Source: Saprospiraceae bacterium
GTDB taxonomy: Bacteria; Bacteroidota; Bacteroidia; Chitinophagales; Saprospiraceae
Assembly (NCBI GenBank): GCA_020627985.1
Contig: JAHDFV010000002.1
Location: 1-48,755, forward strand
Direction: 5' to 3'
DNA length: 48,755 nucleotides
Below the pieces are notes generated by a model, which was not told the DNA's origin, ran no database searches, and saw nothing but the letters and a program-made list of their open reading frames with translations. Below, piece after piece: positions 18,273-20,403 of this stretch (its first letter is position 1; each line of letters starts with the position of its first letter). A program made the position numbers and the translations under genes.

Positions 18273-18371
18273 TTTTATTTTCATTACATTAAGAGAAAAA
18301 TAACGAATAATTATACATCAGATCTTCATAATTTTAATCTTTGCTACGTTATGAAATAAAAATATTTTTTG

Positions 18372-19581
18372 ATGAAATACTATTTATTCTTTTTGATTCA
18401 ATTCTTCTTCCTTATAAATTCCTGGGGTCAGAAACAAAAATGTGACAATTCTCTTTTTACATTTCCATTACCAGAAAAAGAAAAGGCTTGCATGGCTCAA
18501 TTTGATATTCATGCAGAAGGAGTCAATCATGTAAATACTTTTATTTTAGCAAAAATGACCGAATTGATGTATCCAGAACGATTGGATTATCAACTTCGTT
18601 TTTTGAAAGATTCTTTGGTTGGAGATACTTTAACATCAACCGAATGGTTAGTTAAAAATACACAAGTAATAGAAGAAAATTTCGAATGTGCTTTTAAAGC
18701 TCGGTTTGCTCATTACTTTAAACCTGAGGATAAAGTTAGCTTCACTTTTATTCATAAAACGTACAAAGACAATAAGTACAAAAGGATATGATCCAGAAGT
18801 CATTTTAATTTCTACAAAAGATGCTATTTTCATTGTTTACCGGGGAACAGATAGCGTTGGAGATGATCTATTGGCTGAGTGGACTGGGACTGATTTTAAA
18901 ATTGGAATGGTTGAAGGAGATGGTGCTTTAAAAGATATTAAAATTCATAAAGGTTTTTGGGGCAGTTTTGTCATTATGCGAAATGAATTGATCGATCATT
19001 TAAAAAGACTTGATGGGAAAAATAAAAAGATTTGGATTACAGGACATAGTTTAGGCGGAGCCATGTCTATCCTTTCTGCCGCTTATTTAGAAGGTTTTGG
19101 ATTCCCCATTCAAAATGTATATACTTATGCTTCTCCAAGAGCAATTGGAGGTAAGAAGTTTATGAATAAGGTAGATGAATTACTTCCGAATAAAATTCAA
19201 CGCTTTGAATATTTCCTTGACCCGATTGCCATGCTTTGGACTCCTCCTTACAAAAATAATGGAAAAAGAAATTGGTATGAAAGTGCAGAAAAAGGAAATT
19301 ACAAATTACATCTTGATACCAAGGAAAGATATATTTCTACTAATCCAACTGAATTTAATCGAGTCCCATTTTTTGACAAACGATCGAAAGAAGATGTAAG
19401 ATTACATCGTCAACGCTATAACGCTTTCATGACTGATTCAAAAATGAAAGTCCATTTTCATAATTCTCAATGGTATGTAAAGGCTGCTTATGCACAATTA
19501 ACTGAAGAAGAAAAAAAGCGTTTACCAAGCGTAGATGATAGTTATCCTTTCTTGTATTATGGAGCTTCATTTGGGAAATAA
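18372..19581 (+). pseudogene. class-3 (fungal-type) lipase, interrupted by a +1 frameshift
   Basis: The 140-aa ORF carries the signal peptide and N-terminal region. The 297-aa ORF carries YRGT and the GHSLGGA nucleophile elbow. The frames join at the A4 tract at 18780-18783 (KYK|GYDPEV). The downstream frame has no plausible independent start. Confidence 0.6.
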
Positions 19582-19586
19582 AAAAA

Positions 19587-19603
19587 GGCAGCTTTTAGCT
19601 GCC
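19587..19603. terminator. bidirectional intrinsic terminator
   Basis: GGCAGCT-TTT-AGCTGCC flanked by A6 and T7. It sits between the convergent lipase and peptide genes. Confidence 0.75.
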
Positions 19604-19620
19604 TTTTTTTATTTCTATGA

Positions 19621-19788
19621 TTATCCAATAACTTGGTCTTCAATGACAATTTGAGGTCGCCCAATTATATCATCTTCAATCACAATTTCAGATCTCATAA
19701 TCAAGTTATCTTCTATAACAATTTGGGTTGCGCCACCTTTAATTTCTTTTAAAGCTTTTTTGTCTAATTTCTTGAATGTCTTCATCAT
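19621..19788 (-). CDS. 55-aa peptide with a GG-type leader and a triplicated 12-aa core (not in the ORF track)
   Basis: Hand translation gives MMKTFKKLDKKALKEIKGG / ATQIVIEDNLIM / RSEIVIEDDIIG / RPQIVIEDQVIG. A bidirectional terminator lies immediately downstream. Confidence 0.55.
   Translation of the reverse strand: MMKTFKKLDKKALKEIKGGATQIVIEDNLIMRSEIVIEDDIIGRPQIVIEDQVIG
19624..19731 (-). repeat. 3 x 36-bp in-frame tandem repeat encoding xxxIVIEDxxIx
   Basis: Three consecutive 12-codon units share (Q/E)IVIED. The copies diverge at synonymous and flanking positions. Confidence 0.8.
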
Positions 19789-19838
19789 TTTTATATGTTT
19801 AGTATTAAAAATATATACTCTAAGATATAAAATTTAGA

Positions 19839-20315
19839 TCAACCTATTGATTTCAAAGCTTGATGCGCTACAACACCAAAAGTTACTGCAACATTTAAGC
19901 AAGGTGTTTCTCCTAAAGATGGGATATAAACTGACCCATCCATCAATTCGATCGCTTCTGGTTCTAATCCTTCTTTTTCACTTCCTAATAGGATTAAATC
20001 ATTTTCTTGAAATTGAAAATCATTTAAAGATTGGGATGTTTCATTGACTAGTGTAGCAATTTTTCTACCAGGGTAATTCTTAAGAAATTCAATTTTATCT
20101 TCAACGACAACTACTTCTATATGATTAATCGCACCAGCTGTCCAAACTCGGGCCAAGTGTTGCATATCTGCTCTAGATGTTTTGTTATTAGGGGGAGAAA
20201 GCAGATTATTTTTATCATAGATATAAATCTTTTTCATCCCATAAAACTCCGCAGACCGAATCATGGATGACATGTTTGGTCTGTATTCTGGTGCATATAA
20301 TAAAGCGTTAATCAT
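19839..20315 (-). CDS. SpoU/TrmH-family RNA 2'-O-methyltransferase
   Basis: C-terminal SPOUT knot motifs (LLGSEKEGL...VYIPSLGETPCLNVAVTFGVV). 158 aa, a minimal TrmL-like size. Confidence 0.75.
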   Translation of the reverse strand: MINALLYAPEYRPNMSSMIRSAEFYGMKKIYIYDKNNLLSPPNNKTSRADMQHLARVWTAGAINHIEVVVVEDKIEFLKNYPGRKIATLVNETSQSLNDFQFQENDLILLGSEKEGLEPEAIELMDGSVYIPSLGETPCLNVAVTFGVVAHQALKSIG

Positions 20316-20352
20316 TCTTAAAATTTATTTGACTCTAAAAGTTAAATAAAAA

Positions 20353-20382
20353 AGTCGGCTTGAATAATTATTCAAGCCGACT
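20353..20382 (-). terminator. intrinsic terminator after ileS
   Basis: Perfect AGTCGGCTTGAATAA/TTATTCAAGCCGACT palindrome flanked by A and T runs. Confidence 0.8.
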
Positions 20383-20403
20383 TTTTTATTTCTATTAAGT
20401 ATT

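What the first reader, a model, noticed from the sequence alone, without database searches (positions are those of the whole stretch)
19621..19788. Unannotated peptide with a bacteriocin/RiPP-type GG leader and three tandem IVIED core repeats
Seen directly:
- A 55-codon ORF on the minus strand sits between a bidirectional terminator and a SpoU-type methyltransferase gene.
- It encodes MMKTFKKLDKKALKEIKGG, followed by ATQIVIEDNLIM, RSEIVIEDDIIG and RPQIVIEDQVIG.
- The DNA repeats have diverged mostly at positions that keep the IVIED core. This suggests selection at the peptide level.

Established knowledge: the leader (L.KK.LKEIKGG) matches the double-glycine leaders of class II bacteriocins and of the Bacteroidota GG-type natural-product precursors. 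Those leaders are cleaved by C39-peptidase ABC exporters.

Inference: this is a multi-core precursor or repeat peptide whose processing genes lie elsewhere. No C39 transporter, radical-SAM enzyme or other maturase is present in the window. An acidic, beta-branched 12-mer triplicated after a GG leader is not a family I recognise.
Basis: partly seen in the sequence, partly recalled or inferred. Interest (0 to 1): 0.65.

Follow-up and report, generated by a model that had tools for sequence, protein, structure and literature searches.

The report
Acidic repeat peptide with export leader
This is a real small gene of an alga-associated Saprospiraceae bacterium that encodes a peptide with a bacteriocin-type "double-glycine" export leader and three copies of an acidic IVIED unit; about 17 relatives carry one to three such units, so it belongs to a small family that none of the libraries searched here describes, and its function is untested.

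Summary
The 55-codon ORF at 19621-19788(-) reads exactly as described. The IVIED DNA pattern occurs three times in the window, all in this ORF (0.11 expected by chance). The leader passes two curated NCBIfam leader models and has the canonical hydrophobic spacing before GG.

The peptide is not a singleton. Profile searches and neighbouring loci gave about 17 peptides from marine and algal Bacteroidota (Saprospiraceae MAGs, an uncultured Dokdonia, metagenomes). Each has a leader ending in GG or a GG-like motif, followed by 1-3 copies of the unit D-I-[VI]-I-E-D-x-[IV]-hydrophobic. They evolve under purifying selection (omega 0.09-0.26 where measurable). One contig carries five paralogues in tandem.

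The core is conserved across three different leader types. It is strongly anionic (-3 to -9) and has no Cys.

No C39 transporter or maturase lies in the 48.7-kb window or in seven other contexts. I could not test whether the genome encodes them elsewhere, because the genome search was shut.

Most likely this is an exported, probably unmodified peptide of a new core family. Its unit looks modular: single-unit members exist, and most linkers between units carry one Lys or Arg. The function is unknown. Interest is moderate.

The parts
19621..19788 (-). Complete peptide gene: 55 codons plus TAA stop. A second in-frame ATG at 19785 gives the 54-aa form.
   Evidence: The 54-aa product is already in the protein collection.
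19732..19788 (-). Double-glycine leader MMKTFKKLDKKALKEIKGG (19 aa, net charge +5). Cleavage is predicted after Gly19.
   Evidence: NF047798 24.6 bits (cutoff 23.5) and TIGR01847 17.1 bits (cutoff 15.7). Hydrophobic residues at -4, -7, -12 and -15.
19696..19731 (-). Core unit 1: ATQIVIEDNLIM
19660..19695 (-). Core unit 2: RSEIVIEDDIIG. It begins with the linker Arg.
19624..19659 (-). Core unit 3: RPQIVIEDQVIG. It begins with the linker Arg and supplies the C-terminus of the peptide.
19575..19615 (.). Bidirectional intrinsic terminator: a GGCAGC/GCTGCC stem extended by A/T tracts. It is shared by the peptide gene and the convergent lipase gene.
   Evidence: -24.8 kcal/mol, z -8.7, 0 of 200 shuffles fold as well
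19789..19838 (-). 50-nt AT-rich spacer between the SpoU-type gene and the peptide gene. It holds only imperfect Bacteroidota -7-like boxes (TATATTTT at -30, TAAATTTT at -51). No terminator lies here, so co-transcription with the methyltransferase gene is possible.
   Evidence: No RNA data are available.
19839..20315 (-). SPOUT (SpoU/TrmH-like) RNA methyltransferase gene, the upstream neighbour. It is conserved without any peptide gene in more distant relatives, so it is probably a housekeeping gene.

Best explanation
**What it is.** The ORF is a genuine, selected gene for a small exported peptide.

**How it probably works.**
- The 19-residue N-terminus is a double-glycine leader.
- A peptidase-containing ABC transporter (C39/PCAT type), encoded elsewhere in the genome, would recognise it through Ile-4, Leu-7, Leu-12 and Phe-15.
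- The transporter would cut after Gly19 and export the 36-residue body.
- That body is Cys-free, strongly anionic (net -6) and rich in beta-branched residues.
- The body is three copies of a conserved unit, [DNE]-I-[VI]-I-E-D-x-[IV]-hydrophobic. This unit defines a small family in marine and alga-associated Bacteroidota that none of the libraries searched here describes. Members carry 1-3 units.
- The peptide most likely acts outside the cell without enzymatic modification.
- The unit is the functional module. Copy number may set dose or avidity, or the precursor may be cut at the single Arg/Lys linkers into peptides of about 11 residues, the size of the single-unit members.

**Shown:** gene reality, family membership, leader type, selection, and absence of linked processing genes.

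**Inferred:** export by a PCAT, the cleavage site, the absence of modification, cutting at the linkers, and any biological role (antagonism, signalling, or a surface or matrix function).
For: **Leader**
- It passes two curated models and has canonical hydrophobic spacing (PMC6363468).
- GG cleavage by a PCAT has been shown experimentally in Bacteroidota for the bacteroidetocins (PMC6671954).

**Family**
- phmmer against 1.84 billion representatives found P0004.
- Profile searches found P0007, then P0010 (E 2.8e-5), P0011 (1.6e-4), P0012, P0013 and P0014.
- Further uncalled or neighbouring copies lie in L001, L006, L017 and L044.
- 32 units give I27/32, [VI]32/32, I29/32, E29/32 and D32/32 at the five core positions.

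**Selection**
- omega is about 0.09 (P0007/P0010), 0.15 (P0004/P0005) and 0.26 (P0012/L017b).
- The other pairs are saturated at synonymous sites, with pN 0.23-0.40.
- The one listed variant in run X1, at 19774, is synonymous (TTC>TTT).

**Synteny**
- L001 carries a 2-unit copy (P0006) in the same slot between the SpoU gene and the lipase gene.

**Gene architecture**
- Most copies end in their own intrinsic terminator.
- Other GG-leader peptide genes sit beside family members.

**Modularity**
- Single-unit members give mature peptides of 10-11 residues (P0012, P0014, L017b).
- 9 of 13 inter-unit linkers contain a K or R, and no unit does (my count from the sequences).
Against: - No C39/PCAT gene lies in the window or within about 10 kb in any of the seven other contexts.
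- Its presence elsewhere in the genome could not be checked.
- No transcript or peptide data exist. Only DNA runs from an algae metagenome hold the locus.
- Several Saprospiraceae paralogues end the leader in KGKG, KGRG or KGKGG, and one (L017b) in KGV. These do not fit the strict Gly(-2)/Gly-Ala-Ser(-1) rule.
- An anionic mature peptide is atypical for class II bacteriocins.
- The core is more conserved than the leader. This hints at a specific partner, either an enzyme or a receptor, that was not identified.
- AlphaFold gives no structure (pLDDT 56).
Confidence: 0.45

Rival explanations
1. It is a RiPP precursor. The IVIED units are multiple core peptides modified by enzymes encoded elsewhere (for example epimerisation of the beta-branched residues, Asp/Glu hydroxylation, or ester or amide cross-links). 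They are then exported through the GG leader and possibly excised.
For: - The invariant E-D in a fixed hydrophobic frame across three leader types suggests recognition by a specific protein.
- Multi-core architecture is known in RiPPs.
- One family member weakly matches the leader model TIGR04149 for rSAM-modified RiPPs (E 0.003).
Against: - No radical-SAM, ATP-grasp, LanB/C/M, YcaO or other maturase lies next to the gene in the window or in the seven other contexts.
- Ser, Thr and Lys partners for graspetide links are not conserved, and there is no Cys.
- RiPP families usually conserve the leader and vary the core. Here it is the opposite.
- The window peptide itself does not match TIGR04149.
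Confidence: 0.2
2. It is a peptide signal. The short acidic units of about 10-12 residues, released from the precursor in one to three copies, are sensed by a TPR-like receptor. This would be a Bacteroidota counterpart of Gram-positive GG-peptide or short-hydrophobic-peptide pheromones.
For: - Single-unit members give mature peptides of only 10-11 residues.
- In two otherwise different contexts (L014, L015) the peptide gene lies about 100 nt downstream, on the same strand, of a homologous orphan all-alpha protein (48% identity, E 4e-88).
- The confident half of that protein's model resembles peptide-binding TPR superhelices.
- L015 also carries a TPR-His_kinase gene.
- Earlier notes of this scan report GG peptides beside TPR proteins in Saprospiraceae. 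These are leads only.
Against: - The window and the L001, L006, L013, L016, L017 and L044 loci have no homologue of that protein.
- The fold matches are generic (E >= 1e-3, TM 0.2-0.3), and no RRNPP receptor is among them.
- No HTH was detected in the protein.
- Pheromone cores usually diversify into pherotypes, whereas this core is conserved.
Confidence: 0.13
3. The peptide is not exported. It is either a cytoplasmic micro-protein or an Ile/Val-rich regulatory leader peptide whose translation senses Ile-tRNA charging near ileS.
For: - The peptide is 20% Ile (11 of 55 residues).
- In the three syntenic Saprospiraceae loci the peptide genes lie next to ileS.
- No exporter was found.
Against: - The gene lies downstream of ileS and ends in a strong terminator facing a convergent gene, so there is nothing downstream for it to regulate.
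- Family members elsewhere have no ileS or ilv neighbours.
- An attenuator does not explain the invariant Glu-Asp or the leader models the peptide passes.
Confidence: 0.05
4. It is a chance ORF in AT-rich intergenic DNA.
For: It is short, the genome has 31% G+C, and there is no expression evidence.
Against: - About 17 homologues in different taxa and contexts keep the frame and the motif.
- omega is well below 1.
- The motif occurs 3 times where 0.11 is expected.
Confidence: 0.02

Closest known systems
Double-glycine leader peptides exported by C39-peptidase ABC transporters (PCAT/AMS); NCBIfam NF047798 leader_Chryseo ('bacteriocin-like protein') and TIGR01847 bacteriocin_sig
   Same: - The 19-aa leader ends in GG.
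- Hydrophobic residues lie at -4, -7, -12 and -15.
- It passes both curated leader models.
- It is a small stand-alone gene with its own terminator, and other GG-leader peptide genes sit beside its relatives.
   Different: - No transporter is linked, and none could be sought in the genome.
- The leader is Lys-rich (+5) and the body is acidic (-6), the reverse of the usual charge pattern.
- Several paralogues have KGKG, KGRG or KGV in place of GG.
Bacteroidetocins (class II-like peptide toxins of Bacteroidota; PMC6671954)
   Same: They are Bacteroidota peptides with a short GG leader, shown by MS to be removed at GG. They are unmodified apart from disulfides.
   Different: - Bacteroidetocins are 42-48 aa, cationic (+2/+6) and carry four Cys.
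- They are encoded in a four-gene cassette with a PCAT, a thiol oxidoreductase and a 5-TM protein.
- The peptide here has no Cys, is anionic and repetitive, and has no cassette.
Multi-core RiPP precursors (repeat-core graspetides such as plesiocin/thuringinin, cyanobactins; TIGR04149 GG-leader rSAM targets of Bacteroidota). Recalled from general knowledge.
   Same: A leader is followed by tandem copies of a short conserved core. Acidic residues are invariant in each copy.
   Different: - No ATP-grasp, rSAM or protease gene is adjacent in any context.
- Thr, Ser or Lys partners are not conserved.
- The TIGR04149 model does not match the window peptide.
Gram-positive peptide pheromones: GG-leader ComC/BlpC, and the short hydrophobic peptides (SHP) of Rgg systems. 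SHP sequences are recalled from general knowledge.
   Same: The active units would be short (10-12 aa) and start with Asp/Glu followed by an Ile/Val run. One paralogue contains DIIIVDIIGG. Weak leader-only matches to ComC and EntF models were seen.
   Different: - The phylum is different.
- No two-component or Rgg-type receptor is adjacent in the window.
- SHPs have no GG leader.
- The ComC and EntF matches are below their cutoffs and cover the leader only.

Membership tests
Double-glycine leader / PCAT-substrate peptides (NF047798, TIGR01847) | Score at or above the curated cutoff of a leader HMM | tested here: met
   NF047798 scores 24.6 bits (cutoff 23.5) and TIGR01847 scores 17.1 bits (cutoff 15.7). 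Margins are small because the models are 15-18 positions long.
Double-glycine leader / PCAT-substrate peptides (NF047798, TIGR01847) | Gly at -2, Gly/Ala/Ser at -1, and a leader of about 15-30 aa with hydrophobic residues at -4, -7 and -12 | tested here: met
   The window peptide has G-1, G-2, I-4, L-7, L-12 and F-15. The rule is taken from PMC6363468. It is not met by paralogues P0005, P0008, P0009 and L017b.
Double-glycine leader / PCAT-substrate peptides (NF047798, TIGR01847) | A C39-peptidase ABC transporter (or free C39 peptidase) encoded in the same genome | not testable with these tools
   The genome search and the fetch from genomes were shut. None is present in the 48.7-kb window.
Double-glycine leader / PCAT-substrate peptides (NF047798, TIGR01847) | Leader actually removed at GG and peptide found outside the cell | not testable with these tools
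   No RNA or proteomic data exist. Only DNA runs hold the locus.
Class II unmodified bacteriocins / bacteroidetocins | Cationic, amphiphilic mature peptide (bacteroidetocins: four Cys) | tested here: not met
   The mature part has net charge -6 and no Cys. The family ranges from -3 to -9. Bacteroidetocins are +2/+6 with 4 Cys.
Class II unmodified bacteriocins / bacteroidetocins | Linked immunity, transporter or accessory genes | tested here: not met
   The neighbours are the SpoU-type methyltransferase and the lipase genes. No shared neighbour appears across the contexts.
RiPP precursors (graspetide / rSAM-modified GG-Bacteroidales type) | Maturase gene (ATP-grasp, radical SAM and so on) in the neighbourhood | tested here: not met
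   None is in the window or in loci L001, L006 and L013-L017. L044 holds only the five peptide genes and one small ORF.
RiPP precursors (graspetide / rSAM-modified GG-Bacteroidales type) | Conserved modifiable residue pairs (Thr/Ser/Lys with Asp/Glu; or Cys) | tested here: not met
   Only E and D are invariant. Positions flanking the unit are variable, and no Cys occurs.
RRNPP/Rgg-SHP-like peptide signalling | Adjacent cytoplasmic HTH-TPR receptor gene | tested here: inconclusive
   An orphan TPR-like protein lies upstream in L014 and L015 only. No HTH was detected, fold matches are generic, and it is absent from the window.
Amino-acid attenuator leader peptides | Located upstream of the regulated genes, with alternative terminator and antiterminator structures | tested here: not met
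   The gene ends at a bidirectional terminator that faces a convergent gene.

The most novel reading that the evidence does not exclude
The family would be a 'polyprotein-style' peptide signal or effector system of surface-associated marine Bacteroidota. One precursor would carry one to three copies of an acidic peptide of about 11 residues, D-I-V-I-E-D-x-I-hydrophobic. After GG-leader export, a Lys/Arg-specific protease would cut the copies apart at the single basic linker residues. TPR-like proteins, such as the orphan neighbour in L014 and L015, would then read them. The conserved acidic core flanked by aliphatic residues would be the ligand.
Probability: 0.12. Interest if true: 0.75.

Novelty: new variant of a known kind. 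Interest (0 to 1): 0.42.

Why it matters
Double-glycine leader peptides are common in Bacteroidota, but almost none outside the gut bacteroidetocins has a known role. This family is unusual in three ways.
- The core is more conserved than the leader.
- The core is strongly anionic.
- The core is built from a countable unit (1, 2 or 3 copies).

These features make it an easy test case. Synthetic peptides of 10-12 residues could be assayed directly for antagonism, signalling, metal binding or self-assembly on algal-surface bacteria. If the units are released separately, it would be a case of precursor-encoded dosage of a secreted peptide; I found no description of this in Bacteroidota in four full-text searches. 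If not, it is simply one more orphan bacteriocin-like gene family that deserves an HMM.

Tried and rejected
- **Genome-wide search** for C39/PCAT, rSAM and paralogues. The genome search and the fetch from genomes were shut, so it was not done.
- **Single-sequence word-index search.** It returned only the query itself.
- **phmmer hits P0002 and P0003.** These are repetitive 712-713-aa proteins and were dismissed as compositional matches.
- **Metagenome DNA scan** for I[IV]IED-x7-I[IV]IED. All 19 hits are tandem-repeat DNA or unrelated proteins; none is a family member.
- **Viral-contig scan** for KGGxxI[IV]IED. All 7 hits were in unrelated proteins or ORFs without a leader.
- **Literature searches** for the motif and for GG peptides of Saprospiraceae found nothing specific.
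- **AlphaFold of the peptide** gave pLDDT 56 and no secondary structure, so it is uninformative.
- **Rfam** found nothing above gathering score; the hits are terminator hairpins only.
- **RNA evidence.** No RNA run holds the locus.
- **Functional link to the SpoU-type methyltransferase** (for example peptide methylation). Rejected: SPOUT enzymes are RNA methyltransferases, and the gene is conserved without peptides in L002-L005 and L007-L011.
- **Link to the C25 (gingipain-type) peptidase two genes away.** It is syntenic only in the close relatives and absent from the other contexts, so it remains speculation.
- **Ile-attenuator idea.** Rejected on gene order and the terminator.
- **All-against-all BLAST of neighbours** across contexts gave only one shared family, the TPR-like P0015/P0016.

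Full report
**1. The observation**

It reads MMKTFKKLDKKALKEIKGG followed by ATQIVIEDNLIM, RSEIVIEDDIIG and RPQIVIEDQVIG.
- The degenerate DNA pattern for I-[IV]-I-E-D occurs three times in the 48,755-bp window (31% G+C). All three are in this ORF. Shuffles give 0.11 expected, and none of 100 shuffles reaches three.
- In the three 15-nt cores only three columns vary. All are synonymous third positions.
- Over the whole 36-nt repeats pS is 0.61-0.66 against pN 0.18-0.31.
- The stop codon is followed by a hairpin with A and T tracts at 19575-19615 (-24.8 kcal/mol, z -8.7). It serves both this gene and the convergent Lipase_3 gene.
- 50 nt upstream, with no terminator in between, lies a 158-aa SPOUT-type methyltransferase gene.
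- ileS lies further upstream, behind a perfect 20-bp-stem terminator at 20345-20390.
- Rfam finds nothing above threshold here.

**2. The leader**

The N-terminus passes two curated leader models: NF047798 leader_Chryseo, 'bacteriocin-like protein' (24.6 bits, cutoff 23.5), and TIGR01847 (17.1 bits, cutoff 15.7).
- The Pfam matches (ComC, Bacteriocin_IIc) are below threshold and cover the leader only.
- Counting back from GG, the window peptide has Ile-4, Leu-7, Leu-12 and Phe-15.
- This is the pattern by which C39 domains hold their substrates: Leu-12...Leu-7 ahead of a GG, GA or GS motif (PMC6363468).
- PCAT-dependent removal of a GG leader has been shown by mass spectrometry in Bacteroidota for the bacteroidetocins (PMC6671954).

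**3. It is a family, not a singleton**

*How the members were found*
- phmmer against 1.84 billion representatives found one true relative, P0004.
- P0004 lies in GCA_020628145.1, in a locus syntenic with the window: C25 peptidase - ileS - peptides - SpoU - peptide - Lipase_3 - ArsR. That locus holds four GG-leader mini-genes, three of them with the I-I-E-D unit. One (P0006) occupies the same slot as the window gene.
- A scan with the SpoU protein identified the organism as a Saprospiraceae. The best matches are MAGs labelled 'RZ' at 77-82% identity, and Lewinella matches at 65%.
- The window DNA is held by runs from an algae metagenome.
- Another syntenic MAG (L006) has four GG-leader genes between ileS and SpoU and none after SpoU. 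Relatives in which synteny is broken have none near SpoU. The locus is therefore a variable island of peptide genes: counting genes before plus after SpoU, 0+1, 3+1 and 4+0.
- Profile searches added P0007 (uncultured Dokdonia), P0010, P0011, P0012, P0013 and P0014.
- Reading their contigs added a tandem single-unit copy in L017.
- In L044, a contig from JGI metagenome 3300000977 (record BBAY70_10086536), there are five paralogues in a row.

*What the members share*
- The roughly 17 peptides carry 1, 2 or 3 units.
- 32 units give the profile [DNE]-I(27)-[VI](32)-I(29)-E(29)-D(32)-[NHDQ..]-[IV]-[LIMV].
- Mature parts have net charge -3 to -9 and contain no Cys.
- No Pfam or NCBIfam model covers the core.

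**4. The genes are selected**
- omega is about 0.09 for P0007/P0010, 0.15 for P0004/P0005 and 0.26 for P0012/L017b.
- The other pairs are saturated at synonymous sites, with pN 0.23-0.40.
- The one listed variant in the sequencing runs over the ORF, at 19774, is synonymous (TTC>TTT, Phe5).
- Most copies have their own terminator.

**5. Context**

Pfam/NCBIfam scans covered all 36 ORFs of at least 100 aa in the window except ileS. They found no C39, ABC exporter membrane domain, HlyD, rSAM, ATP-grasp or lanthipeptide enzyme. The only ABC genes are a Wzm/Wzt-type glycan exporter.

The seven other contexts share no neighbour with the window.

There is one exception among the other contexts:
- In L014 and L015, which otherwise differ, the peptide gene lies about 100 nt downstream, on the same strand, of a homologous orphan all-alpha protein (48% identity over 298 aa).
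- That protein has no sequence match in Pfam, NCBIfam or PDB.
- An AlphaFold model from a two-sequence alignment is confident only in the C-terminal half. It resembles generic TPR superhelices (E >= 1e-3, TM 0.2-0.3).
- No homologue is present in the window or in the other loci.

**6. Interpretation**

*Shown*
- It is a real, conserved gene.
- Its leader is of the double-glycine type.
- Its body is built from a modular acidic unit.
- Processing genes are unlinked.

*Inferred*
- A PCAT encoded elsewhere cleaves after Gly19 and exports the 36-mer.

*Two observations that shape the mechanism*
- The core is conserved across three leader types: the K-rich Saprospiraceae leader, the MLEK...IYGG leader of Dokdonia, and the MLKNL...LEAISGG leader of L044. 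This is the opposite of the usual RiPP pattern. It argues for a conserved target or partner of the core itself.
- Single-unit members yield 10-11-residue mature peptides. In multi-unit members 9 of 13 linkers carry a single Lys or Arg, which never occurs inside a unit. The unit may therefore be the active entity, released by a Lys/Arg-specific protease.

Release of separate units is inference only. I rank an unmodified exported peptide first (0.45), an unlinked RiPP pathway second (0.20), a TPR-sensed signal third (0.13), and non-export or artefact last.

**7. Caveats**
- No RNA data exist.
- Several paralogues have non-canonical KGKG, KGRG or KGV leader ends.
- AlphaFold gives no structure for the peptide.
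- The leader HMM margins are small because the models are very short.

**8. Novelty**

The kind (a GG-leader, bacteriocin-like peptide gene of Bacteroidota) is well known, and PGAP would probably name this gene 'bacteriocin-like protein' from its leader. The core family, with its modular acidic unit and variable copy number, matches no model in Pfam or NCBIfam, and four full-text searches found no description. I therefore rate it a new variant of a known kind, of moderate interest.

Noticed in passing
window 18369-19581 (+): The convergent Lipase_3 gene is split into two frames at about 18757-18791. Its orthologue in L001 is one 405-aa ORF. tblastn places residues 18-130 in frame 3 and residues 133-405 in frame 1. 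This is either a frameshift pseudogene or an assembly error. The public contigs do not cover the site.
   Followed up: partly
L001 9720-9842 and L006 3338-3454: A second mini-family of GG-leader peptides sits in the same ileS-SpoU island. Its members share the C-terminus LHEYYLSY (mature parts AGADFNLHEYYLSY and NHHLHEYYLSY). L006 3472-3594 is a third type (TRHEDHVGHKVVVK).
   Followed up: no
L044 3-815 (JGI 3300000977, BBAY70_10086536): Five tandem paralogues of the IVIED family lie on a 1-kb contig. Each has the canonical leader MLKNLxNEEVLSLSNLEAISGG and two units.
   Followed up: partly
L014 4344-5786 and L015 1-891: An orphan 480-aa all-alpha, TPR-like protein family lies immediately upstream of the peptide gene in two otherwise different contexts. 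It has no Pfam, NCBIfam or PDB sequence match.
   Followed up: partly
L016 2154-2339: An unrelated Cys-rich GG-leader peptide gene (…KKLDNKAQKSIAGG|CPGGPPSSEANCELCLGLW…) lies 0.5 kb downstream of family member P0010.
   Followed up: no
window 20345-20390: A perfect 20-bp-stem palindromic terminator lies between ileS and the SpoU-type gene. In two relatives this same intergenic position is occupied by a 0.7-kb island of three to four GG-leader peptide genes.
   Followed up: partly
L013 6502-9912: In the Dokdonia contig the peptide gene follows a PixA inclusion-body-like gene and three tandem PTL_trimer (PF26696) genes, and it precedes a gamma-glutamyltranspeptidase gene.
   Followed up: no
window 19774: One contig of public run X1 reads A instead of G on the + strand. 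In the peptide gene this is TTC>TTT, a synonymous change at Phe5.
   Followed up: yes
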